Assembly: GCA_030141605.1 (NCBI GenBank)
Contig: JAQGDQ010000096.1
Span: 1-64,000, forward strand
Source of the DNA: Tubiluchus corallicola
Taxonomy: Eukaryota > Animalia > Priapulida
DNA length: 64,000 nucleotides
Reading direction: 5' to 3'
Shown: positions 18,801-61,455 of the stretch, piece by piece
Layout of the letters: the number at the start of each line of letters is the position of its first letter
Position numbering within the stretch: the first letter of the stretch is position 1
The notes under the pieces: generated by a model
Told to the model about the DNA's origin: nothing
Database searches by the model: none
Seen by the model: the letters and a program-made list of their open reading frames with translations, nothing else
Program-made: the position numbers and the translations under genes

Positions 18801-21800
18801 TGACAAATGTTGCTACTCCATGATAACATACATGCAAACGTTATGATGCATATTGGTTGTAAAAAAAGGGGCTATGGTTACCTTGGTAACAGGCAAAGAG
18901 GGTCTAGAGTCTGGACGGGGCGAGTCACATCAGAAATCGTATTAAAAGTGTTTATTTGTACTAAAATTATGTTAGGCTTTGGGCAATGTCATATAAACAG
19001 GGTTTTTGTAATAAGGAGTTTGTAGTATACGTAATTATATGGATTCTATTAGGTCCCCTGACTTTAGTCAGTTGGGCCTATTGCCGTCATGCGGCATCAG
19101 TCAAGCGTCGTTCACAATTGACTTAATTTTCCTTAATTGGCCAAAACCTTCTGTCTCAAGTTGTTGACTTTTTGTGTACAGCAACCTTGGCATGAGATGC
19201 ATGTCGTGTGTCAAAATGAAAAACCTGGGCTTGAAAGGTCGCGACCCAGTGGATCATGAATGTTACGTGGGGTTTTTTCATATTTTGCTAAAAATCTAAG
19301 TGATGTATGCAGTAAACAAAATGGTTTTATGGCAATTTTGAACAGTATATTATAAGACCTTTCAAAGTCCAGCGGTTGCTATGGTGTACTAAGTCTTAAT
19401 TTGGTAGTTGCTAGGGGGTAAAAATGACCATTTCTTCCAAAATAGATAATGTACATATTCTTTGACAGTTTTGACGCTAAACGGATACAACATACAGAAA
19501 ACATTGTAATGCTAGAGTTTTTGACTGCCAAAATTTTGGTCCACCTGAGGTCACTCAAAGGACTTCAACAGGGAATGTCTCTATCATGTCGAGTAATATA
19601 TCAAATTAAAGCTTGGGTTGGGCGGGTTTGACACTAAAAAATGTTAGCCCATCTGAGGTCACCTAAAAAGGTCATGTACAGGGAATCTCTCAAACATATT
19701 GTGTAATATATTCAAATAAAGCTTATGCTGAGGTGGTTTGACATGGTTCATTAAAACATTGAGCGTCGCTGATGAATGACTTCATTTTCTTTATTTTGCC
19801 AAAGCTTTTTGTCCTTCATCTTAGATTTTTGGTGTGTAGTAACCTTTGCATAAAATGCATGTCAAACTGAATGACCAAGCTGAAAAATTTTGGGCAGTCT
19901 AGGGTCACCCTTAGGGCATGTAGAGAATGTAGCAAACAATTGTGTAATAATTGTAGCAAACTGAAGCTTACGATGAAGTGGGTTTACAAGGTTCATGAAA
20001 TGGTCAGAAGTCAGTTGAAGAGCATCTCAACAAAATCACTAGGGTCACAGGAATGAAGGCTCCCTTTTCATAAATAACTAATTAGGCTTTTGAAACGTCT
20101 TACTTACTCACTTACATAATTGTTTACCAATTCACTCATGCACTTACTTAGTCCGATAGTTACTTTTGGTCTCACAGCATAACAATAATAATAACTTCAA
20201 ATGAGTGTACATTTCACTGTTATTTGCTGAAATGTGTGTATTTCTGTAACGCTGTTTTACGACTTCTTGTATTATTAGAGTATGTAAAATAGAATAATTT
20301 CACTCATTATATCAATTTTGAAACAAATACAACTTACAGAATCCATTATAAAGTAACAGTTCTTGACACTATAAAATTTTGCCCTATGCAAGATCCCCAC
20401 CATTTTCCATAATATTATACAATTCTTCTTCAGGGGACCTACACCATCATTGACGGTCTGGTTGTGAGCTTGGCAGGGACATGATAAAATTGTCGTGCTA
20501 CTGAGAGTTTCGTTGTAAGCCGAATCGTATTAACGGGATTCGTCTGTACTATTTCTTTTTTAGATGAGCAGTTCCATGATCACCAATCAATAAACAATTA
20601 ATAACTAATTTATTTTTGTATCTCCGGTTTAAAAGTCAATTTTAGTTGAGGCCTGCACCGTTCGATAAAGGAGGAATTAATAGATTGACGTTGCTTATTT
20701 CGCGATCAGTAATTGGTAATCAATAAAAACTTCTAAAGTCCCTAATTGTTTGTCCAAAATGTGCCAAGATGCCCTAAATTTCAATCTGCTGCTCCAAAAG
20801 AAGGTTCCTTGCGGCAGCAGATCTAATAATTGGCTTCTTGAAGTTTTTTATTATTTGTTTTATAATTACATTTGAGTTTATGGTTGTCTACATAGGATGC
20901 TGGGATGGAAACAGAAGATATTGCTAGGGAAGTTTCTGAATTAAACTCATTAATCAAACAGGAAGAGGAAAAGATACGAAAATACAAGGTATTTGCGCTG
21001 GTAATTATTTGAAGGTTATAATTTGTACATCGCTTTTTCACATTTCCTCTTTTTGGCCAAGTCTGTTTTCAAAAATTTATTAAGTAAGGGCCTGTCCACC
21101 AAAAACAATAATATTGAAGTTTGCAATTGAAATTGTAGATAAATAATTAGTTTACACATGAATTAAGCTTACCTCTAAATTGATTTTAGAAAATTACTCT
21201 TAAGTGAACTAACACCTGAAAATTCATATTGGTTGATGAGCTGTTAGGATTGAATTGAAACCTACCTTGATTACAAAGGACTGTCTCGCAGTCTGTTGTG
21301 GAGATCACTGGCATCAATTAGAATTGCATAGAACATCGTAGAATGTTCCGTCGGAATGACCGTCTTACCGTCTGTTTCTACAGCGAGCTATATAAGGCGA
21401 AGCAGGCTGCCGGCAAGCGGATATCGCACACAGAGCACGCAGACCTCACGGACGTAATACTTACATTTTTAGATGTACTTAAACGTTTTCCAGATTTTCA
21501 CATTTATTGTAATCATTTCAACGTTCCTTCATCTTTGTGTTATAGAATTCTCTCTAAATAAAGTAATATTTAATGGCGTGTTTTCTGGTTTTCTCTACGA
21601 GCCTTCCGAGAGAAACAAAACACAACAAATATTGGCGCAGTCGACAGGATCCTTGGTAACTCAGTGGACAGTTGTTTATTCAAGCAATAATGGCAGAGCA
21701 GATGGGCGCACTTATCAAGCTCCTCCGCCAACAGATGGATCAGCAGGCGCAGCAGATTCAAATCCAGAGGGAACAGATAGATTGGCAAGAGCAGCATCAC

Positions 21801-24800
21801 AAACTAGAGATGGATCGGCAAGTAGAACAAATGGATCAGCAGGCACAGCAACACAGAGAGGATATGGGCGCTATGAGGAAGCTGCTTCAGACTAGAACTC
21901 CACCTCAAGCACCCACCTTCCACCTGCATCAACACTTACAGCTGCCATTCCACCATTTGCTGCTTTTGATTCACTTTCTGAACTGTGGCCTAACTACTGG
22001 TCAAGATTTCGTACCTTCGTGGTAGCCAATGCAGTGCCTGACCAACGCCAGGCTCAAGTTTTCTTAACAAATCAGACTGCATGTGTTTACAAACAACTGG
22101 CAAATCTAGCGACACAACAGTCTCCATCCAAGGATATTGTGAAAGTTATAACTGTATATTTAGGTGCTGCCATCTATTGATTCGTTACTTTAAACATTTA
22201 CTAGTTGAATTCACCCCTTAATGCAATTGTATGTTCCAATGAATATTCAAACTCACTGTATCTCCCCTATTTTTTTGTAAATGGGATATGTGAAGCCATG
22301 TTTTTGCATAGTTCTTTACATATATAAACTGGCTAGATTCCACTTCTAGCCACTGTCTACTCATTCGTGATCACTGCAGGACATGCTGGTCCTCAGTGTA
22401 GCAGTCATGCAACACTATAACTATATAACTATGTAGTGCAATAAAAGTATTTTAGTTTGTGCAAATATTTAATCTTGTGTTTAGTTGTTTATACCAGTGT
22501 TCAATTTCGTCTTCACAAATATCTTTCACATATGGTCCTTCGAGCCGGATGCGAGCCCAGACAGCGCACAGGGATAACCACACAGGACTTCTACTTCTTT
22601 TGTCAACATGACGGAGCAAGTGGAGAAAACTAAACGAGTTCGTCGAGCTCTGAGATCTTCACTCACTATGGCTACCAACTTATTATCTGACGAGCTAAAT
22701 CAAGAGATTCCGAGGAAAGAAGAGGTAAGCCTTCTCTTATCAATTGTTACTGAAAGGGCAGAACGCCTGTTTGAAGCAGACAACAACATCTTGTCACAGT
22801 TGTTAGACGCTGACTCTGAACAGGTATCACTCGACGAGGAAGTCGAATCTGCTGATGAGTACAAATGGCGAATTACACGTGAAGTACATCGTGCCAATCA
22901 ATTTCTTGGCCCTGCTTCCGCAGCTGACCATCCTACCACTGGTCCTGCCGCAGGTGTCAGCCGAGCTGACACTCTCTCTGACAATTCACTTGCTCGTTCA
23001 ACAGCTTTACTCGCTTACCTAAGCTAATACTGCCGAAATTTGATGGCCAGATTCTGGAATGGCTGGCGTTCTGGGAGCAGTTCGATGCTGCTGTTCATTC
23101 TCATGAGCATTTAGCACCTGTGCAGAAGTTCACTTATTTGAAAGGTCAACTATGCGGTGAGGCTGCCACAGCCATTGCCGGGTTGCCTCTTTCTTCAGCT
23201 AATTATGCAACCGCCATTCATCTACTTGAGCGTCGGTTCGGGCGCAAAGAAGTACTAATAAGTGCGCATATGTCAGCACTTCTTCGATTGCAACCATGCA
23301 CTTCTCTCGATGCGAAGCCACTTCATAAAGTGCTCGATCAACTTGAGACAAACGTACGGGGTCTCGAAGCCCTACATGTCACTTCGGATTCTTATGGTCG
23401 GTTACTAATACCGGTCCTGTTGTCTCGTATTCCTTCACATCTTCGTCTCCAATGGGCAAAGAAGGATGCGGACGAAGAAGGTACAGTCACGGAACTTATG
23501 GAGTTTCTCAGAGATGACATCCAAGCTCGTGAGCGTGTCAGAGAAGTCAACTACTTCGTCGAGAAGCCTCCTCAACCAACTGTGAAACAGTGTTCTAGTA
23601 AACGTTCTACATTTCTGACAAGGGGCACCAATAACAGTCAGTCATGTTTATTGTGTGGCGATTCGTGCAGAACCCCTTTCCATTGTCAGAAGTTCTTAAG
23701 CTTGTCCGTTGATGCTCGACAGCAGCTCATCAGGGACAGACACTTGTGTTTCAATTGTTTACGGTCACATCGACTACAACAGTGCACATCCAAGAATGTG
23801 TGTCAAGAATGTGGTTCCTTGCATCATACACTGCTGCATCGTGTTTCTTCAAACAGTGCATTCAGCGGAAGTTCTCCTAGTGTTGTTTGTGATCCGCCTT
23901 CTTCTAAACTCAACTGCATGGTGAAAACTACCAGCAATGGTCACCGCACCGTTCTACAGACAGTTCTTGTCCACATGGATGGAATTGATCGTCCGGTTCG
24001 TCTACTCCTGGATAGTGGATCGGAAGAGACTTACATCAGCGAAGCTCTCAGTCAACAAATTCAACGCAAACGGGCTACTCAATGTAAGTTATTTCAAGTT
24101 CAAACTTTTGGTGGGAAGAATACTTCCTCAATTAACAGACAGAAATATGAGTTCAAACTGCGTAGTATGTATAATGATCAATGGTATTTTATGAATTGTT
24201 GGGTTGTTCCCTTCATATGTTCACCCCTTCAGGGTGTTGAATTGTCGTGCTTAACTACGTTACCACAAGGTTTAGATTATGCTGACGATTACAGTCAATT
24301 GCAATTGCCTATTGATGTATTGGTTGGTAATGATGCCCTTCCTCACATCTTTACCCCTAATGCTCCCATCTTCCACTCCAATCTTATGCTGATTCCTACC
24401 ATCTTCGGTTGGACATTGAGTGGTTGCGTTCCTAACTCCCTGTCACAACATTCCTCCTTGGTTCCTCTTGTACGCACTCTGTACTCTAGGAATGCAGATG
24501 CCAATATCTGTGAATCTTGGTGGCAGTTGGAGTCCATGAACATTCATCCTGACACGGAAAAGGACGAGTTTCCCTTATCCATCAAACACATTGATGGTCG
24601 ATGCGAGACTACTTTGCCATGGGCTGGGTTCGAACGTCCACAGTTCACTAAGCAACAAGCCTTGGCACATAGTCGATCTTTCTACAGGTTGCCTCCAGAA
24701 CGGCAACAGCGATACAGAGACTCTTTAAAAGAGTGGCAAACCCTTGGAATCATTGAAGACGCACCTAACACAGATGGTGGCAATTTCCTACCCCATCATA

Positions 24801-27800
24801 GTCTCATCCAAGGATCAAAGTTGCGAGTTGTTTTCAACGGCTCAGCAAAGCCTACCATTGGCCTCAGCATCAACGATTGTCTGGTAACAGGTCCCAACAT
24901 GCTCAGCGACCTTTTAGCCATTCTGGTACGTTTCCGCAGTCACCAAATTGGTCTAATTGCTGATATCGAGAAAGCCTTCCTGATGATTGGAATCTCGTCT
25001 ACAGATCGAGAGTTTCTCAAATTCATTTGGGACTTGGACGGCAAACAGCACGTCAGCAGATTTGCCAGACTTCCCTTTGGGCTTTCTGCAAGCCCCGCCA
25101 TTCTTCATGCCATCATTGCGATGCATCTAGACAGCCTACCGGCGACTTCAACAGTCACCTCTCTTAGGCACAACATGTATGTCGACAATCTCGTATCCGG
25201 TTGCGACTACGAAACCGACATCGATTCATTCAAATCTGAAGCTATTCAAGCCTTCGCCAGTGCCGGCATGAACCTTCGTGCTTGGCAGACTTCTTCCTCT
25301 TCTACAAGAGAACGGTGGGAGTGCAACTCTGATGACTTTACCAAAGTTCTTGGCCTCAGCTGGTGCCATCAATCTGATACCATAGCCGCCAGCCTGAAGC
25401 TTTCATCTGAACCTCCCATCACTAAGCGTCAATTGCTAGCCGAAATCTCCAAGATTTTCGAATCTCTGGGATTTATTTCCCCCTTCACCATACGTCTCAG
25501 GATTCTCTTTCAGTCACTCTGGAGAAGGTCACTCAACTGGGAAGATGAACTACCTTCCAGTACTGCAGTACAATGGGGTCGTTTCATTGAGGAAACACAG
25601 CAACACGAATCCAGGATACACTTTCCTCGATACGTACCAATGACTTCACACTCTGAACTTCACATCTTTTGTGATTCTAGTGAGGCAGCTTATGCAGCTG
25701 TTGCGTACATCAAGACAGACACCAATGTCGACTTACTCATTTCGAAGAGCAAACTAGCCCCACTTAAACCACAGACTCTGACTCTTCCACGTTTAGAGCC
25801 GATGGCTGCTCTTCTTGGGGCTCGTCTAGGGACTTACATCCAGCAGCATGTACCAGTCCTATCATCATGTCTCAGACATTTCTACTCGGACTCAATGGTA
25901 ACACTCGGATGGATACGCAGTATGCCAAAAGACGTGTTCGTGAGGAATCGAGTTCGTGAGATCCACACACTCTCGCAAGCATGCGAGTGGTCTCACGTAC
26001 CTAGTTCGCAGAATCCCGCAGATCTGCCAACTCGAGGTTGCAAGCTACTCTACTTGCAACACCTGGACCTTTGGAGACATGGTCCACCTTTTCTCACACT
26101 CAGGGAGGAGTCGGACTACTCTGTCTGCGAACAGAAGTCCTCCACTTTGTTCACTGCAACAACTCCTCTTACAGATTCAGAGAAGACACCACTTTTTCCT
26201 GTGGACCGATGGTCTTCCTTACACCGAGCTATAAACATAACCTCTTATGTGCTCAGATTCGTTCATAATTCACGACTCATCAAGTCAACTCGCGTCGGCG
26301 GACCACTTACGCCACACGAGTTAGCAAATGCTACTGGCTCCCAAAGCCTCACAGGACTGTCAAGAAGATTCTTCAGAAGTGCGTTTCCTGCAAGAAGCTT
26401 CAAGGACGACCATACACTTCTACTGAAGGCAGTCTTCCACCATTCAGAGTCACAGAAGTGCGACCATTTGCGCATACTGGACTTGATCACTTCGGCCCAT
26501 TGTATCTTGGCGACCAGACCAAATCATGGGTTCTTCTGTTCACATGTGCCGTCACTAGAGCCGTACACATGGAAGTTGTCACCTCACTCAATGAGAAGGA
26601 CCCGGGACTAGCTATTCGTCGGTTCTTAGCACGCCGTGGACCCGCACAATTCTACAGCGACAACGCTCGATCATTCGTCAGCTTGGCGAAACACATGCAG
26701 AGGAGTCTAACCTGGACCTTCATCCCTGAAGCTGCACCCTGGTGGGGAGGTTACTGGGAAAGACTCATCGGAACTATCAAACGTTCTTGTCGCAAGACAC
26801 TTGGCAGCACATCTTTATCTCTGACTGAACTCACCACAGTGGTCACAGAGTTAGAGGAACGCATCAATCGGCGCCCTCTCGTTTTGTCCGGAGATGAACC
26901 TTTGACTCCAGGACACTTCATCTTTGGAGCTACTCCACCAGCACTTTTGGACATAGGCATCCACGATTCACCACCTCCTGAAGATCTACAGAGGAGATGG
27001 AAACATCGTCTCACCATTAGCACACATCTTTGGTCCAGATGGAGGAACGAGTACCTTCTATCCTTACGACAATGGAGAACCAAGACAAGATCTCCAGCTA
27101 CTCCGAAGGAAGGAGACATCGTTCTCGTCCATTCCAAGCCTCTACCTCGATGGCGTTGGCCACTAGGGAGGATCGAATCACTGATTCCCGGTCGAGACGG
27201 AAATCCACGAGCCGCCTACATCAGGAGTCACGGACGCCTTACTCGCCGTCCCCTTTGTCTCCTCTACCCCTTAGAATGCACCTGATCTTTAATGACATAC
27301 CTCCTAATTTGCATTGTTTCATTTATTTGACATTTTGTATTGTATTGACATGTATTGAAACTCTAATTATTTTCGTTTCAAGGTGGGAGGATGTGAAAGT
27401 TATAACTGTATATTTAGGTGCTGCCATCTATTGATTCGTTACTTTAAACATTTACTAGTTGAATTCACCCCTTAATGCAATTGTATGTTCCAATGAATAT
27501 TCAAACTCACTGTATCTCCCCTATTTTTTTGTAAATGGGATATGTGAAGCCATGTTTTTGCATAGTTCTTTACATATATAAACTGGCTAGATTCCACTTC
27601 TAGCCACTGTCTACTCATTCGTGATCACTGCAGGACACGCTGGTCCTCAGTGTAGCAGTCATGCAACACTATAACTATATAACTATGTAGTGCAATAAAA
27701 GTATTTTAGTTTGTGCAAATATTTAATCTTGTGTTTAGTTGTTTATACCAGTGTTCAATTTCGTCTTCGCAAATATATTTCACAGATATCAAAGAACTGA

Positions 27801-30800
27801 CAATTGATGAAATTGTCAACTTTATGAAGGAACAATTTGACCCGAATCTTTTCATACTGCGTGAACGTTTCAAGTTCTGGAGTAACATGCAAAGGAAGCC
27901 AGGCGAAACTACATGTGACTTTTCTTCAATCCAAAACCCACTAGATGAAGCTGTGAGACAGAGGTTCATATGCTCAATCAATAACGAAGCTGTTTTGAAG
28001 GCTGTCTTCAAAATCAAGGATGAACAGCTGACTTTCGCCCGTGCTATCCAAATCGCTGCCGATCTGTGGTGACTACTCAGTCGGCATCAACGATCAGCTA
28101 GAGGACCACCGTCATCCAATGCCACTCCTAGAGGAACTGATGCAGAAGCTGGGAGGCGCATACGGCTACACGAACATCGACCTTGCTGATGCCTACAACC
28201 AGATTAAGCTGGCACCCAAGAGTCAACGCAGGCTGACGACGACGACGGGAGGCAAATGGTGAAGACATGGACACGGTGTGTGCCATTAAAGTTCTCAGTC
28301 TTCAAGTCAAGCCTATGGATGCCAACATCCTCCGACAAGAGTCCGGGAAAGATCCAGTGCTAGCTACGGTCATGTGCTACGTCCGAGAAGGATGGCCGCC
28401 CAAGCACGCTGAGATCAACGAAGAAGTCGAAAAGTTCCGGAAGTTGTCGGATTCACTCAGTATCTGCCACGGATGCCTCATCCATGGATCAAGAGTTGTG
28501 ATTCCACAAAGCCTGCAGTCCAAGATCCTGGATCTTCTGCATATCGGGCATTTCGGCATGGAACGCATGAAACAGTTGGCAAGAACTGCTGTCTACTGGC
28601 CCGGTATCGATGCGGCTATCGAGATGGCTAGCAACGATGTGACTCATGCGGAGAACATCAGAACAAGCCATCCAAGCCTGCAGTTCACCCATGGATGCTA
28701 CCAGAGAAGCCGTGGAGCCGCTTACACCTATATCACGCCATAAACTTCATGGGTACGAACTGGCTGGTGATCACGGATGCTTACTCAACGTATCCATGCA
28801 TTCACCCTACGTCTTCCTCGTCCACTAGAGCCACTCTAGATCTGCTGGAAGAGGACTTTGCTCACTTCGAATTACCTCACACGTTGGTCACAGACAATGC
28901 ATCAACCTTCATGTCTAATGAGTTCCATAGCTGGTGCAGAGAACGTGGGATCACACATCTCACAGGAGCACCATACCATCCAGCTACCAACGCAGCAGCA
29001 TACCGATTGGTGCAGACATTTAAGCAACCACTCAGAAAATCTTCTCTGCCCCCAAAGCAAGCTCTTCAAGAGTTTCTGATGCAGTTCCAGAGAACACCGA
29101 CATCCTGTGGATTCTCTCCGAGTGAACTCTTGATATCTCGGCAGATACGGACAAGGATCGACACCTTGCTACCCTCGCCAGTGCACACAGCTCGGGGCAA
29201 GCAATCCAAGGAGTCATCTCGCTGCACTCCAGACTCGGGAGGTGTCGCCAAGGTCACCCAGCAGTACAAGGCTGGAGAGCCTGTCTATACTCTGTACTAT
29301 GACCTCGTCGAGACGGACATCCCCGATGGGTACCAGCGGTCATCAAGAAAGCTTTGGGTACTCGCTGCTTCAACGTTCTCACGGTCCAGTGTGGAGACGA
29401 CACTGGGAACAGCTACATCCGTGCTACGCTTCTACGAGCCTGGTGAGGAGACGGATTTTTCTTCTGAGCTTCCACCTGATCATCCAATGGAGAACCTGGA
29501 AGAACTGCCAGAAACCCTGAAGCAGACCGGAGCACCTCAGCCCATGTCCGAGACCAAGCCGCATGTGCCTGAGTATGGACCGGACAACCCCAGACGATCC
29601 AAGAGGACACCCAAGCCGAGGGAGAGACTTTGTTGCTGATGCTTTGGAGACAGCATCAATTTCGGTGGGGAGGTGTTGTGGAGATCGCTGGCATCAATTA
29701 GAATTGCATAGAACATAGTAGAATGTTCCATCGGAATGACCGTCTTACCATCTGGATTGTTCTCGAACATTTGTTCGAGAAGTTTCTACAACGCGCTATA
29801 TAAGGCGAAGCAGGCTGCCGGCAAGGGGATATCGCACACACACGGCACACAGAGCACGCAGACCTCACGGATGTAATACTTACATTTTTAGATATACTTA
29901 AACGTTTTCCAGATTTTCACGTTTATTGTAATCATTTCAACGTTCCTTCATCTTTGTGTTTCAGAATTCTCGCTAAATAAAGTAGTAATATTTAACGGTT
30001 TTCTGGTTTTCTCTACGAGCCTTCCGAGAGAAACAAAACACAACACAGTCATAGCATTGAACTTGTTATCTAAAGATCTCAGCAATGTCACTTTTTTGCA
30101 TTTCTTCTGTTTGGTCATATTTAATAGCTATGGTCCATTCCATGAAAAACAATAATCCACGCATTGCAATTTTATATTAAGTGACTGTAATAATGTTATT
30201 CCACACAATGGTGTGCTGACCAAGGTGAAGCAAATGTGCTGGACACCTATTTATGCTTGCTGTTTTATTTTTTACCCAAGGCCACTAACTTCATCGTGGT
30301 CAATGGTAGGAAGCTCATCTATTGATAGGAAAGGTCACTTTAGTGGTACTACTGTGTACCAAATGTTTTTTTGAATATTGGCAGTCCTGTTTTCTTTGTT
30401 TTTTTTTCGATAAAACATTTCACCTTTTGCAGCTTTTGGCATTATTACAGGGTTATTGATTTTTCTACACGGTCTTGAATGTTTCAGTTTTGTTTGAACG
30501 TTTGTGTTAAGTTTGTTAACAATTTAAACATTTAAATTTTATGTCTGTGAAAATATGTCCCTCCCATGTTTATCCATATGTAGTAGTTGATATTAAAAAA
30601 ACAGTTCAGGCTTTGCAAAAAGAAACGGAAGGTAGAGAAGCAAGAAAAGAGGCAGTACAGTAAAGTCGATGTATGTAAAGTGAACTAAAATATTGTCATT
30701 ACTGCAGTTTAGTTTTGGATTAATAAACGAATTATTCTCTGTTCTGAAGTGTTTGTCAAAGTATACGAAAACCGTCTTTTCTCTTACTTTACGACTCTAC

Positions 30801-42199: not shown

Positions 42200-45100
42200 T
42201 ACTTACTTGCTGTCCCCACCAGGTGGAGGCAGGCCAGTGCAGGTAGCATCCCGAACCATCGCACGCCACTGCTTCAGGTCCTCGCAGTACGACGGCAGCT
42301 CTGTGAGATCGTCGGAAACTTGGTGGTAGTGGTCCATCCCGAGAGGAGACACAATATCGCGCTTGATTTGATGCCAGAAATGCTTTTGTTGACCTCTTCT
42401 GCACCGCTTCCACGTGCCGCGGCGTGCTGCTGCCACCGGCGCCGGCTTGAACATGGAGATGAGACCCGCACGTCTGTAGACCTCTGCGTTCGTAATGTGA
42501 TTTGAATAGCTAATGCCGAGAACATGCCTTAGCAATTTGGTTTTGAACGAGTTAAGACATCTTTCATCCTCTGCTAGGATAGTCCAGGTTTCGCTGCCAT
42601 ACATCAGCATGGATAGAATGCTGGCTTTGAACATGTGGAGTTTACTCTCAATGGATATTGCGGGTTGCTGCCAAAGAAACCACAGGCAAAACTGATCTGC
42701 CGATGATTCTCCATCGTGCAAGAACCGTCGTTCGAGATTTGGCTGCCCAGGTAAGTAAAGGATTCGACCAGCTTGATGGTGTGCCCGTTGTGCTGTATGA
42801 CGTCATTGTTGAAGTCTGATCCGATGTACATCGCCTTGGTTTTCTCGACACCAACTATTAGACCGTATCGTGCTGCGTTCTTTGAAAAGATATCCAAGAA
42901 CTTATTCATGATTTTGGGGTTGTCTGCTAGCAACGCTAAGTCGTCTGCGAAGTCCATGTCCGCAAGGGACTGGCCGACTGACACCTGGATACCTTCGTGA
43001 CCGAGCCTGTCGATGCTCATGTGCGTAATTCGGTCGATGACTAAGTTGAAGAGCATGGGGACAATGGGCATCCTTGGCGGACACCTGTGATTACATCAAA
43101 TGGCTCGCCGAGGTGGCGGTACACCCGGACTCTGCTGTTGCTGCCGGCGTAGATGGACCTGATAGCATTCAACACCGAAACAGGGACACCGTCTAGCGCG
43201 TACAACTTTCACAGACGCTCTCGGTCAACTGAATCGAAGGCTGCTGCGAAGTCAACGAAACATGCCACAAAAGGTTGTTGGAATTGCAAGTGCCGCTCAA
43301 CGCTGCGACGAAGCGTGAAGATTTGGGCTCGCCCTCGCGGAAACCGGCCTGCTGCTCCCGTGTGGTTGATTCCCGATGACGCTTGAGCCGCCGGAGGAGA
43401 CGGTGGCGTACAGTTTGTCGACTATAGATAGTAGAGATATCCCTCGATAGTTCTTACACAGCGTCTTATCAGCTTTCTTGAATAGAGGAATCAGAAGCGA
43501 CACCACCCACTCCTTAGACACTCTGCTGCTTTCAAACACCATTTCGATGACCTGGTGCAGCCAGGTAATTGCCGTCTCACCACCTGCTCGAATCATCTCG
43601 GCGTTGATGCTGTCCAAGCAGGGAGTTTTGCCGAGCTTCATTGCTTGGACTGCTTTGCAGATCTCATGGACAGTGATGGGACCGCTAGGAATTAGCTGTG
43701 AGGTGGTAGCATTCAGCACAGGACCGTCTAGCTCATGATCTAGTTCAGCTGGCGGCGCACGATTCAGCAGCTCCGAGTAGTACTCTCGTCACCGAGCCAG
43801 CTTTCCTTCGAAGTTATCTATGAACTGTCCATCAGCAGCCCGTATTCGCTCACTAATAACTGACGATTTCTTGGGCGAAGTACTCCATACATCTTCCTTA
43901 GACTTCCACCAGTACTCCAAATCAACCTTCGCAAGCCCCATAACTACAGCGTCCAGCCCAGATGTGTGTTGCTTGATCTTCTCCTTCCGGCGAGCATCAC
44001 TCGCGATTACTGTCTCCTTATGCAGTTTTGATTCCTGGGTAGTCCCTCGGCGATACCCTACCACATCCGATGCCACCTCCGTGAACCCATCTCGCAGCTG
44101 CATCCACGCCTCTTCCACAGCGTCGTCTTCGGGCTCCTGCAGGGCAGCGAAGCGGTTCGATAGTTGAAGCTCGAACTCCTGAGCAATGGGCGCGTCTCAG
44201 AGCTTGCCGGAGTCGAAGCGGCGGGGTGGTTTTATTGCTGTGCGCTTCTTTATCTTCAAGCGAATCTTGCACACAAGAAGCTTATGGTCCAAGCCAACAT
44301 CTGCGCCCGGAACGTGCGAACGTCTAGGAGCAAAGATCAGAGTCGCTGCTGCACTAGAAAATGGTCGATCTGTTTGGTTGTGATGCCATCATTTGATTTC
44401 CAAGTAACCTTATGAATATCACGGTGTTGATACAGGGTGCCATTCATTGCAAGCCCGTTCATTGCAGCAAACTCAATCAGTCGGGTGTCGTTGCGTTGAC
44501 CGAGACCCTGTGCGCCCATCACACGTCTCCATGCGTTGTCGCCTCCACCGACATCAGCATTCAGATCTCCACTGATGATGAGGAAGTCTGATTTTGGTAC
44601 TCCTTGCAGGCACTGTTGCAGACTAGCGTAAAAGTTGTCTTTTTCAGCTCAGGACGGCGCATACACAGAGACGATGGTGAGTTTGCCATGGCGAGTGTCG
44701 ATCCGTGCCGACATGATCCGTTCAGACACTGTATCAAATGTCATGAGTGCAGCTTTGGCAGTGTGATTAAGGGCGATGCAGACACCAGAGTGCCCCACGT
44801 CCCATCCAGAGTAGAGGATGGTGTAATCTCCAATGCATTCCTCGCCAAACTCCCGCCACCGTACCTAACTCAAGCAACAAATAGCGACCTTATATTCAAC
44901 AAGTTGACGTATTAGGTCCTCTAGCCTGCCAGGCACATTCAATGACCATACATTCCATGAGCCAATCCAAGTACTGGTTTTTGCCGCAAATAAGTGTCTC
45001 CTTTCCGTCAATCGTTGGGAATTTTCCGTAATCGTACCAGGGTCAAGTCCTGAGAATCTGGTCGGGTTTGTACTTATACTTGTTTCGAAAACAACAAGAT

Positions 45101-52754: not shown

Positions 52755-53045
52755 GTTAAATGTGCCCCTTGCTTGATTACCTAGGAATTGCATTTTTTTA
52801 AATTAAATCAGAATTTACCACTTTTGGCCTGCAACCTCATGGCTCAGTGATTTGAGTACCTCAACATCGTCATCAATGAATTCACCCATGCTTGATTACC
52901 TAGGAATTGCATTTCTTTTCAATCAAATTGGAACATCATTTTTGGCTGGCAACCTCACATGGCTCAGGAATCTGAAGGTCTAAATATTGTCTCCAGCGAA
53001 TTTGCCCTGCTTGATTACCTAAGAATAGCATTTCGTTTTAATGAA
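52755..53045. repeat. Diverged ~120-bp tandem repeat x2.5, probably the core of a larger (~52700-53850) non-autonomous element
   Basis: GCTTGATTACCTAGGAATTGCATTT at ~52771, 52890 and 53009; GCAACCTCA...GGCTCAG twice. Confidence 0.7.
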
Positions 53046-54667
53046 AACTTGTGACCTTTTGACCCTTGTCCTTGGGCAGCGGTTGGTCAGTCTTGAGTCA
53101 ACCTGTGACATTTAATTAGCCTTGCCAAAGCTTTTCATTTCATATATCACAAGCTAATTTTTTGCTTGGCGCTGGAGAAACATCTGTTGTTAATTTTCAC
53201 ATTTTGCCCCCCTAGCAAAAACTCTCAGCAAAATGGATGAGATGGAAATCAACACCACCTAGCTAAATGCAAAAAATTGTGGCCCTAGTATGTAAACTAT
53301 AGAAGGACATATAGCCTAACAAAAAACTGATAGATGTCTACTGTCCTTGACTGTTTGACCTAAGGTTATTGCTCAGTATTACATTTTCTGACACCATACT
53401 CCTGGTACCTACGCTGCAAGTTTCATGACTTCACATTGTTTGCTTTTCCAGTTATTGACAACACCCTGTTTTAATACTTTTGCATATGTCATGTGACCTG
53501 GCCTCACCCACTTTCTGAAAAACACCTAGTGCATATCTGTCCTTAACTGGCTACCCAAACGTGCAAAATGTGGACTCCTACTGTAAGAGAAGTTGAGTGA
53601 CAAAGCCATTTGCCCTAATTTGCACACTTTGGCTACTAACTCGGATTTTGGATTTACTCACATATTCATATCCCTAGGAGGAGTTGAGTGATAATCAAAA
53701 AAAGAGCCCATGTCCAGTGTGCTCAACCCTTTGTCCTGAGGTCAACGGTCTCCATACCTGAGCCCCTGTCTCTGGTGTCTGCCCTGCATATTTGGTGACT
53801 CTAGGTAGTACGATTTTTGTGTTATTCAGTGTTGTACCGGAGAATAAATAAATACTTTTACGGTTTTGTAAATAAATTTCACATATTGCAGAATCTTAAC
53901 TGTTTCAAACCTGATACCATGACTAACATTGACCAACCAAAGGATGAAAGCTGACCTAGTTAACAACGCTAAAAAATAATGAAATTTTCCAAGCCCTTAA
54001 TAATTAATGCATTTACTACAGCATTGCAGTTTGCCTCACTGTGGTTGTATACCTGAGTGGTGAAAAACTATTACTGTAGCAATTGAAGCCTGTCGTCATG
54101 ACAACGGATGCAGCTCACCTATTAGTGATTCATTATAGTGTCATCTTTTTAAAGCAGCTTCTTGATAATGCCACTGTAGCTGATAGGCGTAGCTTGAAAG
54201 TTTTGTTACATATTCCATCATTAGTAGCTTTGGAGCATATTGTATATTTTAGCTGGATTATTTTTATTAATTTGCAATTGATAGTATGACCGTAAATAGC
54301 AAATAAATGTAATTTCAGCAAAGGAATGTGTAATTTTCTTTCTTTTACTGTGTGTTTGTCTGATACATAGCTGATGTTAACAGGAGTATATATTATATCT
54401 ATATATGAATATGAGTAATACTACGTGTATATGTGGTATATGTGTATTATGGTTAGTCGCTCAGCATTCATATGGCTATGTAAATAAATAGCTTGCTATT
54501 GCCATGTGTCTATTAGCCAGATATGTACCTGTACGTCATGGCTCAGCAGGATATTCAATATATTGCATATGGCTAATGTGCGGTGTTGTAATTTTATTTT
54601 TATTGTGCATTTTAGATATGACTGTATTTACCAAGTAAGATAGCTTGTGAGTTGTGAAGTATTCACA

Positions 54668-54709: not shown

Positions 54710-57700
54710 GTATGGTACCACATTTGTGAAAAAATCTTGGTTCTTGCTCGGATTCGTTTTGAAGCGATTTTTAATCCATGATGACCATCATTCAATAGAG
54801 ATTGTTTTATTCTTATTAGAAGACATTATTATTTCTTAAGAAGTCAAATTGGTATAGATATTCATTTGTGCAGTAGATTTTATAAGTGAAAGATTTCCTA
54901 ATAATGCACAGCTATTACTAAACTTTATAGCTTATTTCTACTGGTTTGTAGCCTGTAACAAGTTTGTTTCTCATTCTTTATTTTTCAGACAAGTTTCTAA
55001 ATAAACTTAACGTGCCTGCAGTTAACCCTGCAAATTTTTTTTCATTAATGACCATTTCATTATTCTTTCAGATTTAAACATGTGTCATAAGCTAACCCTC
55101 ACATAAACCATATCTTCATACCTCACATGGAATGTTTTTATTAAACTACTAATATGTATAAATACGTAAAAAACCTGAGTAAAATACTCAACTTACCTTA
55201 CCTTAGACCTTAGTCCTTCCTGCGCATTGATGCACATTGGGCAGACAGCATTTTCCACTGAGTTCTATCGGCGGCTTCGTTCTCTACGTTTTCCCAACGT
55301 CTGTTGACAGCTCGAAGGTCTTCTTTGAAGGATCTGCGCCACGTTGTTTTTGGCCGACCTCTTTTTCTTTTCCCACCAGGTGGTTCCCACTGTACTGCTG
55401 TTTTGGCGTAGCGACTTTCTGATAGACGGAGAATATGTCCAGCCAGTTTCATTCTTCTCTCTGTAACTATATCTTGTAACCGCAATGACTGCGCTCGTTG
55501 AAGAACTTCTACATTGGTGACATGGTCGCGGTAGGAGATTTTTAGTATCTTTCGAAGGCATTTTTGGTGGAAGACGTTCAGTTTCTTTGATAACTCCGCT
55601 GTGACTTTCCAGGTTTCGCTGGCATAGAGAGCCGTTGGCAGCACAATGGCGTTGTACAGACGAAGTTTGATTTTCATGTCAATTTTCTTGCTTGTCCAGA
55701 TTTTTCCCATCTTCCTAAATACTGCTGTTGCTTTGCCGATTCTCCCCCTGATGTCATTTTCTGTACCTCCATTACAGGTCATCACACTGCCCAGATATGA
55801 AAAACTGGTAACATTCTTAACCATTTGGCCTCCCACTGTTATATGTACATCATTCTGTTGGTTTGTCCACACTTTCAAAACTTTGGTCTTTTCTTGACTA
55901 ATTCTCAATCCAATTTTTCCCGCTACTTCTTCCATACTTGTGGTCAGTTGTTGCAGGCTTTCTTTTGATGTTTCCAGAAGAGCTATATCGTCAGCAAAGT
56001 CCAGATCTGCCAATCGTTGTTGTTGTTTCCATTGCATTACTAGACCTTTACCATCAACCGCCTTGTTCATGATGAAATCAATCGTCAGTAGGAACAGGAA
56101 TGGCGACATAATGCAACCCTGCTTAACTCCAGTTTCGATGGTGAAATACTCGGTGTTTCCCTCTTGTGTTCTTATACAACAGCCGCTGTTTTGGTAAAAG
56201 TTCTGGATGGTTGAAATGCATTTCTGTGGGATACCATACAGAGAAGCAATTTTCCATAGAGACTGCCTGTGAACAGAGTCAAAAGCCTTCTTGAAATCAA
56301 TGAAATTGATTAATAAGGGCTGTTGGAATTCCATACATTGCTCAATGATGTTTCTGAGAGTGAATATCTGTTCACAGCATGATCTTCCTTTTCTAAATCC
56401 AGCTTGTTGTTCTCTTAGTCTTATATCAACAGCATCTCTCAACCGATCTAGCAGCACTATACTCAGGACTTTTCCAGGTATTGACATCAGAGTTATTCCT
56501 CTCCAATTATTGCAATCTGTCAGGTTCCCTTTTTTAGGCAACTTCACGATGACTCCATTTCTCCAATCTTCGGGGACCTTTTGTTGTTCCCAGCAGCTGT
56601 TCAGGAGCTTTGTCATTGATCGTGTTATCCCTTTATTACCGTGTTTCAGGAGCTCAGCTGTTATTTGGTCCTCTCCAGCTGCTTTGTTGTTCTTTAGTTT
56701 TTTGATGGCAGTTTCGACTTCCAGTTCACTGATGTTGTCCAATCTTACATCTAGCTGTTGTTGTCCAATTTCATTTTCAAAATTGAATAATGTTGTTGGG
56801 TTTGGCTGGTTGAGAACTTCCTTGAAGTGTTCCACCCATCATGCGTTTTGCTGTTCTGTTGTTGTGAGAGTCACACCACTTTTGTTCTTGATTGGCACAG
56901 CTGGGGTGCCTCCTGTTCCCGTTAGATCTTTAACAATTCTGTAGAGAGTCTTGGTATCATTATGGCTGGCTGCTAACTGTGCTTCTTCACCCTTCTTTTC
57001 AAACCATTCGTTCTTGTCCCTCCTGCTACGTCTTTTTACTGCTCTATCTGCCAGTTGGTACTGCTCATTGGCTTGACTCCTGCTTTCTGGTGTTTTTGCT
57101 TGGTCTCTCATTTGCTTAGTCTTCTTTCTTTCATCAATTAATTCCCAAGTTTTTTCTTGTATCCACATTTCTTTTCTGTTACCCCTTCTTCTGCCGATCT
57201 GTTCATCTGCAACTGCTGTTACTGCTTCTTTGAATATTTTCCACTGTTCTTCAATATCGTTGGCTTGTAGTAGTGGTTCAAATTTGTTGCTAAGTGCAAG
57301 TTCAAAACTCCTTGCTTTTTGTTGGTCTTTCAGGTTTTCAACCGCAAAAGGTCTTGTGATTTTTGGCTTTTGTATCTTTTTCAGTTTGAGCTGCACTTTT
57401 CCTTGAACTAGGTGGTGGTCAGAGCCCACATCAGCTCCACGACATACTTTCACATCTTTCAGTGCTGATCTCCATCTCTTGCTGATACAGATGTAGTCGA
57501 TTTCGTTCTGTGTATTTCCATCTGGTGACCTCCATGTCTTCTTGTGGATGGTTTTGTGGGCAAAATAAGTATTTCCAATACACAGTCCATTTAAATTGCA
57601 CAACATCAGGAGCCGTTCACCATTGTTGTTTGTTTCTTGAGCTGATCCATGTGGCCCGATTACATGCTCCAATCCGTGTCTGTTGTTGTCAATCTTTGCA

Positions 57701-60700
57701 TTCATATCACCCATGAGGAGAATGATGTCATGGCTGGGGATGTCATTCAGCACATCTTGACATTGTTGGTAGAAATCATCTTTAACTTGTTCATCTGTAT
57801 CTTCAGTTGGTGCGTAAATGCAAACAATAGTTGTTTTCGCATGCCTTCACTGTATTCGGGCAGTTATTATCCTCTCACTGACTGGGTTCCATCCTATTAG
57901 TGTCTTTGCTGCCTCTTTGTTCAGCATCAGACCAACACCTCTCTGGTGATCCTCCTCTGGTCCTGAATACAGAAAGGTTGTTTCTCCACTCTTGATGTTT
58001 CCGCTTCCTGTCCATCTCACTTCCGTTACGCCTAAGATACTGAGTTGATAGTTGTTGAATTCCCGGATAACTTGGGCCATTTTTCCTGTTTGGAACATTG
58101 TTCTTACATTCCAAGTGCCAATTTTTGTCACCTTTGTGGCACTCAGTATAGAGTTCTTCATCGGATGCTGGGCTTCCTCTCGGCTTTGACCTAGCATCGT
58201 CATAACATGGGTCGAACTTTCTGCTTTGTGCCGATTTGTGTCAGTAGATTTGTTTCTGTCTGTTTCTGTAGCAATTGAGAACTTTTACAGGATAGGGGTG
58301 CTAACCCTAAGCCCAACCCTCCTCCTCTCTCAACCGGGCTTGGGACCGGCTATGGCAGAGTTAAATACTCAACTAGGTAGCACAAATATCAGAAAAATCA
58401 ATGCCTAGTATTTAAGAAGTACATGGTTATTATTTAGATTATGTTATGTACCTGGTGCTTGTGGAAAACTGAGCTTAAAATTGTCAGAAACATTAATAGT
58501 GGCAATTTCATATGAATTCACCATGAGCTTGACTGAGTTGTATTTGGAGAGCAGTTCATTTTCTTGTCATTTCTCAAATTGTACTAGATTATCTGTTGAC
58601 TAAAACATTGTGTATTTTCATTTCTTTACTATGGGATTTTTAACTTTAAGTGCCATTTGCAGTAATAGTTTCAAAGAGAAATGGAGACAACAATTAAATA
58701 ATTTAAAAGCAATTTATAATGGAAGCTTTCTATTTTGTAATTGGTTGATAGGTTGCGATACTTCATTTAAAAATCTTCCTTATTGCGGAACATTTATATT
58801 TATTTTTATAAATACAAATAATAAAAAAATATCGCTAACTTCGGTACTTAGTTGCTGTCATCTTCAGCAATATCATCAACTGCTCTTTTTGAGTGGCCAA
58901 CATTTTCTTTACTATGTATAGACATAATTGTGTTTACAGGACTACTTGCAATATATTTTGTTTAGCAAGTTAGCGATTTTTTCTCACAGTGCCAGCACGT
59001 AAGTAGGCAGTGCACTCTATGAGTTTGCTCAAGACTGTGGCTACAACCTGTAACGGTTTGATAATTTACAAGTTTAAGTTTATTAAAACTTGTGACCCGA
59101 AAGTTTAATTATATTACATTAATTAAGATACGCTGAGGTTTAAAATTACAATTAAATTATATTACATTAAAACAACTTTACCAAACATTAATTAAAATAG
59201 GCATTTAAAAGACAGTAATTTGCATTAAGATTAAACTTATTAAAATACATTCTTAAAACATCTCGGTGTCACAGCGTATACAGTAGTACTGAACTTACTG
59301 ATAATTAAAAGTGCATATGGTATAAAACTACTTTTTAAAACGTTCAGTACGGCAAAGAGGTAAACGGTACATCAGTTGTTTACGAAGATTGTGCTCATGG
59401 GGGTTGAGTGTACTTCTTGATTTTGAATTGACTTGAAAAATTTTTGCAAATGTCATTTCTACATTCAGATAAATGTTCGATTTTTGATAGCTGCAAAGAA
59501 TTTACATAAGGTGTTGCAAGGGAAAATTAACTTGAATAATGACTGTAGTTTTGTCTGTTTTAATGTTAAAAAGGTATGCCATGCAGGACAAGCGAATTCC
59601 AGTATCGGTCTTATTGTAAATAGTAAGATCAATAAACAGTAATCGTATCTTTCTGAGAAATACCTGCTCTCTTTAAAAGTTTTATTAAGTAAATACGTTT
59701 GCAGGCTTTTTTGTGTATCTCTTCAACATGTACATTCCAGATTTAGTTATTAGAGATATGGACACCTAGTAATTTGACGGAATTGGCTCTTTCAACACGC
59801 TCACCATTAATAGTAACAGGAGGAATATTTGTTTCAAGTTTGGAAATATTCATGCACATTTCTTTAAATTTAGAGCTATTAAATTTCATATTGTTTAATT
59901 GGGCCCATTCCAGTGCTTGTGTGGTTGCAGTCTGCAATTTGGTAGGTTTACCAGGGCCGCAGATGTCAATGAGGGCTGTATCATCAACATACTTGATATC
60001 TTGTCATACAGTTAAAATTCATTTAACATATCAATGAATATTTTGGTAGAGTTCATAGTGACTTGAGGCACACCACTACACATAACTCTATTCTAGGTAG
60101 CAACTTGTGCGTTCAACCACCCATCTCGAAAACCAGTTTCGTCTGACAAATGAACTGCAAACAGTAAAACAGGGAACTTTAAAGCCAAGCATTCAAGGTT
60201 TTACTAACTGCAAATTGCCAAAAAGACCAAATTGACTAAATACTACCAGTGACTCTAACAAATTTTGCTTGCCATTGTGGAATTAATAAATGACATCGCA
60301 TGTTTAAGCTTCTGGTTGTATGTGAACTGACCGTTGTTCCTTTACATTATTACAGAACATGAGTGGAGAAACTTGCATAGAATTAGCTCTAGAAGGTGAA
60401 CGTCTGTGTAAATCTGGTGATTGTCGCAGTGGTGTTTCCTTCTTTGAAGCTGCAATTCAAGTAGGAACTGACGATATGAAGACATTGAGTGCAATTTACA
60501 GTCAGCTAGGCAATGCTTATTTTTATTTGGGTGAATATGGCAAGGCTCTGGAGTACCATCGACATGACTTGACACTTGCACGGTAATATAATAAATGGGT
60601 ATTACCTAGAATAATAGACATTACGTACAACACAACGAATAGAGAGCAGTGAAAATATTTTTTTATTTTGCAACTTTCTTTATGAAAATCGTAAATAAAA

Positions 60701-61241
60701 TGTGTATTTTTAAATGTTTAACATTTAAAGTTAATATGTAATGTTTTACAAGTTAAGTCTAACTAAATGTGCTGTACTTGAAATTTGATGCTAATTTTAT
60801 TACATTTATAGCACCCATTTTAATAGCTCGCCAGGTGCACTTGAGTAGGCATTTATTCCCAAACTATTGTTCAGATGTGACTTGGGAACATTCCAAAAAT
60901 GCAGGCTATATACAAGCTGTGTCTTATTAACGATTGTACCTAGGCAATGCAGCATCATATGTATTATTGATTATTTACTGTAGAAATTAAAGTTAAAAGC
61001 TCAGCTAGTTTTTTAGAAATGGTTGTTGAAATATCTCCAATCAAGAAATATCAGAGAAAGTTTTATGAGATAACAATCTTGTACGTAGAAACATAATTGT
61101 TTTAGGACAATTGGTGATCCCCTTGGGGAGGCAAAGGCAAGTGGCAACTTGGGTAACACTCTGAAAGTACTTGGACAGTATGAGGAAGCAATACTGTGTT
61201 GCAAACGACACCTTGACATTTCTAAAGAACTGCATGATCAG
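54668..61241 (+). CDS. GPSM2: G-protein signaling modulator (LGN/Pins/AGS3 family), 5' partial: join(54668..54709,60356..60582,61106..61241); continues beyond the window
   Basis: CIELALEGERLCKSGDCRSGVSFFEAAIQVGTDDMKTLSAIYSQLGNAYFYL...YHRHDLTLAR|TIGDPLGEAKASGNLGNTLKVLG matches the N-terminal TPRs of LGN/Pins. It is probably the single invertebrate co-ortholog of GPSM1/2. The first exon is less certain. Confidence 0.88.
55194..58362 (-). mobile_element. Full-length young RTE-clade LINE in the GPSM intron (antisense)
   Basis: TSD AAATACTCAACT (55182-55193, 58363-58374); TAAGG-repeat tail; single EN-RT reading frame; twister ribozyme at the 5' end. Confidence 0.95.
55210..58203 (-). pseudogene. 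RTE AP-endonuclease / reverse transcriptase ORF (998 codons, two in-frame TGA, no frameshift)
   Basis: IGTWNVRTM, GDMNAK, SDHHLV, NWRGITLMS, FIDFKKAFDSV, GVKQGCIMSP, DFADDIALL; stops at 57847-57849 and 56839-56841. Confidence 0.92.
58311..58363 (-). ncRNA. Twister self-cleaving ribozyme (P1 type) at the RTE 5' end
   Basis: Minus strand U^AACUCUGCCAUAGCCGGUCCCAAGCCCGGUUGAGAGAGGAGGAGGGUUGGGC; P2 CUCU/GGAG, P4 CCGG/CCGG, T1 CCC/GGG, T2 GC/GC, conserved UAA and GAGGG. Confidence 0.85.
59250..60160 (-). mobile_element. LINE RT remnant (L2/CR1 group)
   Basis: GVPQVT, KYVDDT, WAQLNNMKFNSSKFKEM, VKLLGVHISNN; decayed. Confidence 0.75.
60356..60582 (+). CDS. GPSM2: GPSM/LGN TPR exon
   Basis: Acceptor TTACAG; NMSGETCIELALEGERLC...HDLTLAR; donor CG|GTAATA. 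Confidence 0.93.
61106..61241 (+). CDS. GPSM2: GPSM/LGN TPR exon
   Basis: Acceptor TTTTAG; TIGDPLGEAKASGNLGNTLKVLGQYEEAILCCKRHLDISKELHDQ; donor CAG|GTTTGA; phase matches the previous exon. Confidence 0.92.
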
Positions 61242-61455
61242 GTTTGATTTATTCAATTTAGCCACTACTACATTGTGATTCCAGTTACTGTTGTGCATTA
61301 AAAATAACCAACAAGTTACTATGTAGCACTGACTTTGTTTTAGTATTGTTCAAGTACTAAAATTATTTGTAAATACAAGGTAATTGTAGGAGTACGTATG
61401 TGAGCTAGCTTAAGAAATTTTCAAGTATGTTTTTGTAGTGTCATTTTTCTGCATT

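What the first reader, a model, noticed from the sequence alone, without database searches (positions are those of the whole stretch)
58311..58374. Twister ribozyme whose cleavage site is exactly the 5' end of a young RTE LINE
Seen: the minus strand reads U^AACUCUGCCAUAGCCGGUCCCAAGCCCGG-UUGAGAGA-GGAG-GAGGG-UUGGGC. The element/TSD junction (58363/58362) falls between the U and the A, about 150 nt upstream of the ORF ATG. Known: P1-type twister ribozymes (rice-type core UAACACUGCC...CCGGUCCCAAGCCCGG...GAGGG) cleave at U^A, and twisters are reported in Schistosoma RTE elements. P2, P4, T1 and T2 all pair here, with P2 covarying (CUCU/GGAG). Inference: the inserted RNA was the 3' product of self-cleavage, so this family is probably released from read-through host transcripts by its own ribozyme rather than using an internal promoter. 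The concept is known, but it is probably unannotated in this lineage.
Basis: partly seen in the sequence, partly recalled or inferred. Interest (0 to 1): 0.85.

Follow-up and report, generated by a model that had tools for sequence, protein, structure and literature searches.

The report
Twister ribozyme heading an RTE retrotransposon
A recently inserted jumping gene in an animal genome begins at the exact base where a predicted self-cutting "twister" RNA would cut itself, so the element likely trims its own transcript, as already shown for a related element in blood flukes.

Summary
Observation confirmed. Rfam twister-P1 matches 58316-58367(-) (43.2 bits, E 2.6e-8, below the 67.2 gathering score; P1 and P3 are missing). 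A perfect 12-nt target-site duplication ends at T58363, so the 3,169-bp RTE-type LINE starts at the A after the predicted U^A cut. All six other full-length junction contigs listed from two studies leave the element at 58362-58366. Seven of 34 related RTE loci that retain the ORF start carry a twister at the same place. The arrangement is published: S. mansoni Perere-3 (Liu 2021, with cleavage assays), and a 2020 review states it for the RTE superfamily. This scan also noted it in three other genomes. Corrections: P2 does not covary here (its U-G pair is likely a private mutation); the ORF has two stop codons; 'read-through rather than internal promoter' is untested, and the only nearby host gene seen (GPSM1/2) is on the opposite strand. 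Small additions: a compact twister form (no P3, 8-nt linker) shared with distant RTEs, and a covarying hairpin that would occupy most of the P1 3' strand. Cleavage was not tested. New member of a known kind; interest 0.3.

The parts
58363..58374 (-). 5' copy of the 12-nt target-site duplication; its last base T58363 supplies nucleotide -1 of the predicted cleavage site
   Evidence: identical 12-mer at 55182-55193, only two occurrences in the window
58317..58362 (-). Twister core without P1 and P3: A58362 (+1, predicted general acid), A58361, P2 58360-58357/58325-58322, T2 58356-58355/58339-58338, single C-G pair 58354/58350 closing AUA, P4 58349-58346/58337-58334, L4 58345-58338, 8-nt linker 58333-58326, GAGGG 58321-58317 (G58321 predicted general base; T1 58344-58342/58319-58317)
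   Evidence: catalytic roles from Liu 2021 and McKinley 2024
58289..58314 (-). Conserved 26-nt hairpin of RTE 5' leaders (3-bp base, bulged C, 5-bp stem, 7-nt loop, followed by GUAAAA); uses the GGG of 'UUGGGC'
   Evidence: 4 of 9 pairs change on both sides among six sequences; also in three twister-less RTE loci
58204..58362 (-). 5' untranslated leader, 159 nt
55210..58203 (-). Single ORF of 997 codons, APE endonuclease plus reverse transcriptase, interrupted by two in-frame TGA codons (57849-57847, 56841-56839), no frameshift
55194..55209 (-). Very short 3' end of TAAG/TAAGG repeats directly after the stop codon
   Evidence: Perere-3 ends in GTAA repeats
55182..55193 (-). 3' copy of the target-site duplication

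Best explanation
[quoted passage not shown] Steps: (1) a source copy is transcribed from upstream or from near its own 5' end (inferred; promoter unknown); (2) the twister folds on P2, P4, T1 and T2 and cuts 5' of A+1, needing only one host nucleotide upstream (inferred from homology); (3) the 5'-OH-AAC... RNA is translated and reverse-transcribed at a nicked AT-rich target primed on the TAAG tail (established for LINEs, inferred here); (4) the new copy starts at A+1 next to its target-site duplication (shown), and the flank supplies a new -1 base, so the ribozyme is rebuilt at each insertion. This particular copy has two stop codons and could at most be mobilised in trans.
For: Rfam hit with L4, GAGGG, T1 and T2 intact. 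TSD ends one base before A+1. Six of six other junction contigs listed for the ribozyme region leave the element at 58362 (three), 58365 (one) or 58366 (two), in two studies; a 427-nt family contig of the second study ends at 58363; summed contig depth in X1 falls 6797, 2834, 512, 0 over 58359-58370. In three of these contigs the base 5' of A+1 is not T, so U-1 is not a fixed part of the element. 7 of 34 related loci with the ORF start carry a twister in the leader (A+1 125-186 nt before the estimated ATG in the four measured), 0 of the other 46 loci have one anywhere. In L021 an 11-nt duplication (10 of 11 identical) ends at C^AA. Liu 2021: all 113 full-length Perere-3 have a twister, TSDs abut the AA, any base at -1 cleaves. 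McKinley 2024: about 94% of natural twisters tested cleave, P1 and P2 imperfections and L2 length do not matter, P3-less forms average 0.85 cleaved.
Against: No cleavage or RNA-end data for this organism. The hit is 24 bits below Rfam's gathering score. Nested folding of this copy's leader favours a rival pairing of the purine run with CCCCUAUCCU; P2 probability 0.05, and folding z-scores are unremarkable; pseudoknots are not modelled. Liu 2021 call cleavage without P1 inefficient. Four of seven junctions have TTT directly 5' of AA (flank frequency of TTT 4.5%), which could mean some RNAs began a few bases upstream. The L021 duplication is followed by AAC on both sides, so its junction is ambiguous by 3 nt. 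One listed X1 contig is 5'-truncated at 58025, and the contig tables were cut (4 loose ends and 38 pieces not shown; 19 pieces not shown).
Confidence: 0.8

Rival explanations
1. Dual system: the leader is also an internal promoter that starts at or just upstream of the element, and the twister trims the start and may help cap-independent translation. Read-through from host genes is then not needed.
For: L1Tc carries promoter and HDV-like ribozyme in the same 77 nt (abstract). A conserved domain in RTE 5' UTRs has been suggested to bind a regulator. A young family of about a dozen similar copies (depth ratios 11-15; rough) needs a germ-line source of transcription. The GPSM1/2 exons seen are antisense to this copy.
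Against: No promoter evidence here. Liu 2021 found Perere-3 transcripts that include upstream flank and infer host promoters; a review says RTEs lack promoters and are read within introns or after LTRs. This rival does not remove the ribozyme's role.
Confidence: 0.3
2. The twister is a decayed or misfolding relic in this family, and 5' ends cluster there for another reason: a transcription start, or reverse transcriptase stopping at the folded 5' structure.
For: Rival nested fold in this copy; sub-threshold Rfam score; T-rich junctions; some relatives have decayed cores (L010, L065).
Against: A structural stop would leave ends 3' of the ribozyme, not at A+1; ends fall on the predicted scissile bond in flukes, in L021 and here; catalytic A, G and both pseudoknots are intact; the relatives fold to P2 plus hairpin.
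Confidence: 0.12
3. Chance coincidence of one junction with a twister-like motif.
For: The junction is ambiguous over T58363-T58365, and the target continues T-A-C-T-C, close to the element's A-A-C-T-C.
Against: E 2.6e-8; six further junctions within 5 nt; same position in other RTE loci.
Confidence: 0.02

Closest known systems
T-variant twister ribozymes of Perere-3 (RTE clade), Schistosoma mansoni; Liu et al. 2021, PMC8501958
   Same: P1-type twister at the 5' end of a single-ORF APE+RT LINE; TSD abuts the AA; -1 base and 5' P1 strand come from the target; same P4, L4, GGAG-GAGGG-UUGG; short G/T/A/A repeats at the 3' end; about 147 nt to the AUG there, 159 here. L083, whose twister equals schistosome sequences in that paper's supplement, has an ORF start 41.8% identical over 146 aa.
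   Different: No P3 hairpin (one C-G pair round three bases), 8-nt instead of 5-nt linker between P4 and P2; apparently a non-schistosome animal host (inferred from the GPSM exon, 77-87% identical to vertebrate and arthropod orthologues); no activity data.
Truncated twisters at the 5' end of RTE-superfamily elements; one sentence in de la Pena et al. 2020, PMC7761336 (cited there as in preparation)
   Same: States the same general arrangement and the same proposed role, 5' processing and translation initiation.
   Different: No sequences or lineages given in the passage; I found no follow-up paper.
Natural twisters without auxiliary stems; McKinley et al. 2024 (CHiTA), PMC11662667
   Same: P3-less twisters, variable L2 lengths and imperfect P1 are known and active; candidates in bivalves, echinoderms, crustaceans, worms and others.
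   Different: Main text does not link them to RTEs (0 hits for 'RTE'). The supplement could not be read, so this exact form may be among the tested sequences.
HDV-like ribozymes at the 5' ends of R2, L1Tc/Ingi and some RTE LINEs (via PMC6765202, PMC5786205, PMC3383444)
   Same: Self-cleavage one base before the element frees it from a longer transcript.
   Different: Unrelated ribozyme fold; R2 is site-specific in rDNA; L1Tc also has an internal promoter.
[quoted passage not shown]
   Same: A sequence domain shared by RTE leaders of many animals; probably the hairpin at 58289-58314 (inferred; the figure with the alignment is not held).
   Different: No structure is described in the text (0 hits for 'hairpin').

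Membership tests
Twister ribozyme, type P1 (Rfam RF03160) | Covariance-model match | tested here: inconclusive
   43.2 bits, E 2.6e-8, but below the curated 67.2; the missing P1 and P3 and the long linker likely cost score. Only 1 of the 10 other twister-P1 hits in related loci reaches 67.2.
Twister ribozyme, type P1 (Rfam RF03160) | P2, P4 and pseudoknots T1, T2 can pair | tested here: met
   All pairs standard in this copy, one U-G in P2; 92.7% of cells paired over six sequences against 39-54% for slid controls. The core is nearly invariant, so covariation support within it is weak (1 pair, in P4).
Twister ribozyme, type P1 (Rfam RF03160) | Catalytic residues: A+1, A+2, first G of GAGGG, L4 consensus | tested here: met
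   A58362, A58361, G58321, UCCCAAGC present.
Twister ribozyme, type P1 (Rfam RF03160) | P1 stem next to the cleavage site | tested here: not met
   Flank AGUAUU cannot pair with UUGGGC next to the site. P1 is reported dispensable or to give inefficient cleavage when absent, so this makes it a truncated variant rather than a non-member.
Twister ribozyme, type P1 (Rfam RF03160) | Site-specific self-cleavage | not testable with these tools
   Needs an assay; no RNA holder was listed.
RTE-clade LINE | One ORF of about 1000 aa with APE endonuclease then RT, no ORF1 | tested here: met
   997 codons; Pfam RVT_1 E 7.8e-35, Exo_endo_phos_2 E 3.6e-4; APE residues N32, E61, D166, N168, H263 identical in 31 of 31 aligned homologues.
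RTE-clade LINE | Very short 3' UTR of short tandem repeats and a TSD | tested here: met
   TAAG/TAAGG repeats straight after the stop; 12-nt TSD.
RTE-clade LINE | RT phylogeny groups with named RTE reference elements | tested here: inconclusive
   No homologue in the 120 listed is labelled RTE and the tree held no named clade references. Indirect link: 41.8% identity to the Perere-3-like fragment L083. The clade name rests on anatomy and my own knowledge.
Perere-3-type twister-headed RTE | Full-length copies start at the AA of the cleavage site, next to the TSD | tested here: met
   This copy by TSD; six other junction contigs at 58362-58366, whose own TSDs could not be read.
Perere-3-type twister-headed RTE | Co-transcription with upstream host sequence | not testable with these tools
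   No RNA run holds the stretch; blank, not evidence.

The most novel reading that the evidence does not exclude
RTE leaders are built from a constant, covarying hairpin plus an exchangeable 5' ribozyme head. A compact twister head (no P3, 8-nt linker) sits on RTE lineages whose proteins are only 39-51% identical to this one, and because the hairpin takes up the GGG of the would-be P1 3' strand, the ribozyme has evolved to cut without P1. Its activity would then be largely independent of the insertion site, unlike the Perere-3 model in which the target-site sequence tunes activity through P1. Twister-less RTE relatives carry a different structured head that matches no Rfam family and may be another self-cleaving RNA.
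Probability: 0.3. Interest if true: 0.55.

Novelty: new member of a known kind. Interest (0 to 1): 0.3.

Why it matters
It extends an experimentally shown fluke mechanism to a young, low-copy family in another animal, where nearly identical copies with different flanks offer a natural series for asking whether the insertion site controls cleavage. The compact form and the neighbouring hairpin give a sharper picture of the RTE 5' end and a small P1-free cutter that needs one upstream base. It does not open a new kind of system.

Tried and rejected
No whole genome is held, so copies could not be aligned from an assembly; contigs of sequencing runs were used instead. No RNA holder listed; the one guessed RNA run and run X4 laid nothing: blanks, no evidence on expression. 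Rfam at gathering scores finds nothing in the window. Viral contigs: 0 matches to the twister pattern, one marginal protein hit. The seven pattern matches in prokaryote assemblies are short contigs that look like host contamination (two have RTE ORF matches) and were used only as sequence examples. The host lineage could not be named: the GPSM exon is too conserved (best 87%) and the nearest named LINE proteins are 52-58% identical from amphioxus, nematodes and an ascidian. Alternative P2 register (CUCU with AGAG, then GAGGA) rejected: it breaks T1, and relatives and Liu's Table 1 fix the register GGAG-GAGGG. An extra CAU/AUG pairing between L2 and the 8-nt linker was considered by eye on six sequences and left open. 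Folding z-scores were uninformative. The X3 loose end at 58318 looks like a sequencing adapter (recalled) and was dropped from the junction count. Hairpin descriptor hits in L044 and L056 lack the GGGTT context and were dropped as chance (background 25 hits in 296,775 nt). The compact form was not found in Liu's supplement (0 hits for four motif spellings; control motif 758 + 1119 hits; line wraps can hide hits and three PDF tables are unreadable). No look-alike notes in this genome or by sequence.

Full report
Observation. Rfam's twister-P1 model matches 58316-58367(-) at 43.2 bits, E 2.6e-8. That is far above chance but under the family's gathering score of 67.2, which is why a default scan of the window is blank; P1 and P3 are absent. 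The element runs from A58362 to 55194 (3,169 bp) between two identical 12-mers (58374-58363, 55193-55182) that occur nowhere else in the window. The target has T where the element has A58362, so that A is element-derived; the three Ts before it are inside the duplication and cannot be assigned. The junction therefore lies on the predicted U^A bond, with slight ambiguity on the 5' side.

The element. One reading frame of 997 codons starts 159 nt after A58362 and ends in a tail of TAAG/TAAGG repeats. It has APE and RT domains with the APE catalytic residues shared by 31 of 31 aligned homologues, no frameshift, and two in-frame TGA codons. This is RTE anatomy by my own knowledge; I had no named clade references in the tree. 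The nearest named proteins are 52-58% identical, from amphioxus, nematodes and an ascidian. The host is an animal with a conserved GPSM1/2 gene 2 kb away on the plus strand; I could not name the lineage.

Other copies. With no genome held, I laid contigs of sequencing runs (X1, X2, X4 are one sample, X3 another study). Leader contigs are 11-15 times deeper than the flank contig (a rough sign of about a dozen copies, since the tool warns that depth is not copy number). The family is young: this copy differs at 2 of 426 positions from X3's collapsed contig, which itself ends at 58363. All six other junction contigs listed in the ribozyme region leave the element at 58362 (two in X2, one in X3), 58365 (X1) or 58366 (X1, X2); summed depth in X1 drops from 6797 to 0 over 58359-58370. 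Where contigs leave at 58362 the next base is not T, so U-1 comes from the target. One X1 contig is truncated at 58025, one X3 loose end at 58318 was dropped as a likely adapter, and both tables were cut (4 loose ends and 38 pieces not shown; 19 pieces not shown), so this is a sample of junctions, without their TSDs. Four of the seven junctions have TTT before the AA, more than flank composition gives; I cannot tell target preference from RNAs that began a few bases upstream. Contigs in X2 branch at 58356/58357, where this copy has U and five of five compact relatives have C, so the U-G pair in P2 is likely a private CpG-type change, not covariation.

Relatives. A partial scan of metagenome contigs gave the best 80 of 528 confirmed loci. 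Thirty-four match the ORF start. Rfam, run on 36 of the 80, found twisters in L007, L021, L042 and L065. A model built from this copy, L007, L010, L021, L065 and L084 (these match by construction) added L028 and a cut L080: 7 of 34, always in the leader on the coding strand, and 0 of the other 46. Nine of the 34 have under 200 nt before the ORF and others may be truncated, so 7 is a lower bound. L021 has an 11-nt duplication (10 identical) ending at C^AA, followed by AAC on both sides; no TSD was found for L010, L028, L042 or L065. L007, L010, L021, L065 and L084 share this copy's compact form: one C-G pair round three bases in place of P3, and an 8-nt linker where Rfam has 5. They fall in three separate parts of the RT tree among twister-less rows (L056 left out for short cover; no clade test), which fits either loss or exchange of heads.

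A hairpin after the ribozyme. 58314-58289 forms a 3-bp base, a bulged C, a 5-bp stem and a 7-nt loop. Four of its nine pairs change on both sides among six sequences (12 of 500 shuffles reach the paired fraction of the whole structure, and the structure was read from these sequences). A descriptor made from them hits 14 of 35 leaders, 12 in the same GGGTT-like context, three of them without a twister. It uses the GGG of UUGGGC, leaving only UU for P1. It is probably the conserved RTE 5' UTR domain of Kojima 2018 (passages and one section seen, figure not held). Against a clean fold in this copy: nested prediction pairs the purine run with CCCCUAUCCU and gives P2 a probability of 0.05, while three relatives fold to P2 plus hairpin; pseudoknots and co-transcriptional order are not modelled.

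Mechanism. Shown: motif, junction, clustering of ends, conservation of position. Inferred: folding, cleavage 5' of A+1, insertion of the 3' product, regeneration of the site by any upstream base. Unknown: the source of transcription. The only host exons seen nearby are antisense, so this copy gives no support for read-through, and L1Tc shows that promoter and ribozyme can share one leader (abstract). I put ribozyme-defined 5' ends at 0.8, an added internal promoter at 0.3 (compatible with the first), a relic at 0.12.

What is known. Liu et al. 2021 (PMC8501958; parts 1 and 3-7 of 9 of the text read, supplement searched and its first part read) show twisters heading all 113 full-length Perere-3, TSDs next to the AA, cleavage in vitro and in yeast with any base at -1, and translation after cleavage. 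De la Pena et al. 2020 (PMC7761336; passages) state that truncated, active twisters are conserved at the 5' end of RTE-superfamily elements. McKinley et al. 2024 (PMC11662667; abstract, passages, three results sections; supplement unreadable) report about 94% of natural twisters active, tolerance of P1, P2 and L2 changes, and only partial loss with G-to-A at the general base. Passages of PMC6765202, PMC6154101, PMC10085705 and PMC13725137 were also seen. Roth 2014, Ruminski 2011 and Kosutic 2015 I know only through these papers; the likeness of the P3-less core to the rice twister is recalled. Searches for a survey of twisters across RTEs found none beyond these, in a library that lacks most subscription papers. 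The compact form is not in Liu's supplement text, but may be in McKinley's. Three earlier notes of this scan describe the same arrangement in other genomes (unchecked, not counted as evidence); a fourth named the Kojima paper.

Verdict. A real feature, correctly spotted, and a new member of a published kind. The compact head and the hairpin that limits P1 are modest additions that make one testable point: whether RTE twisters cut regardless of the insertion site. Interest 0.3.

Noticed in passing
window 60358-60583 and about 61107-61242 (+): Two coding exons of a GPSM1/2 (LGN/AGS3) orthologue, up to 87% identical to vertebrate proteins. A splice-acceptor-like sequence precedes the ATG, so the LINE lies antisense either in a 5' intron or upstream of the gene.
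   Followed up: partly
run X1, 1535-nt contig joining at window 58365: One copy carries, directly 5' of its start, an inverted copy of about 20 nt of the twister's 5' part (fold-back at the junction), which would pair with and block its own ribozyme.
   Followed up: no
window 58363-58366 and other copies: Four of seven junctions have TTT directly before the AA, against 4.5% TTT in flanking DNA. Perhaps second-strand priming on T runs through untemplated As; unexplained.
   Followed up: partly
L024:620-830, L039:2110-2325, L025:1-140, L015:1-240, L017:2640-2840: Twister-less RTE relatives share another conserved, foldable leader upstream of the common hairpin, with no fitting Rfam hit at E <= 0.05. 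Candidate self-cleaving RNA; five sequences only.
   Followed up: partly
L007, L010, L021, L065, L084: The compact twister occurs in three separate parts of the RT tree, mixed with twister-less relatives (L084 has no ORF match and is not in the tree; no clade test run; some 'no twister' rows may be truncated or decayed).
   Followed up: partly
L082-L088: Short contigs in seven bacterial assemblies carry eukaryotic RTE-type twisters, one equal to schistosome sequences; likely host contamination.
   Followed up: partly
window 57901-58212: Run X1 also holds an older subfamily about 6-10% divergent from this copy, and run X5 (same species label) holds only relatives under 90% alike.
   Followed up: no
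window 21470-29640: A Pao/BEL LTR retrotransposon (Peptidase_A17, DUF1759, RT; 22982-27285) amid pieces of a second integrase-bearing element.
   Followed up: no
window 42203-44196 (-): An older, frameshifted LINE fragment with RT similarity and no twister match.
   Followed up: partly
window 52767-53046: Three copies of a 42-nt motif at 119-nt spacing, a short tandem array.
   Followed up: no
window 11100-12500: Two similar GC-rich stretches about 800 nt apart, a local duplication or repeated element.
   Followed up: no
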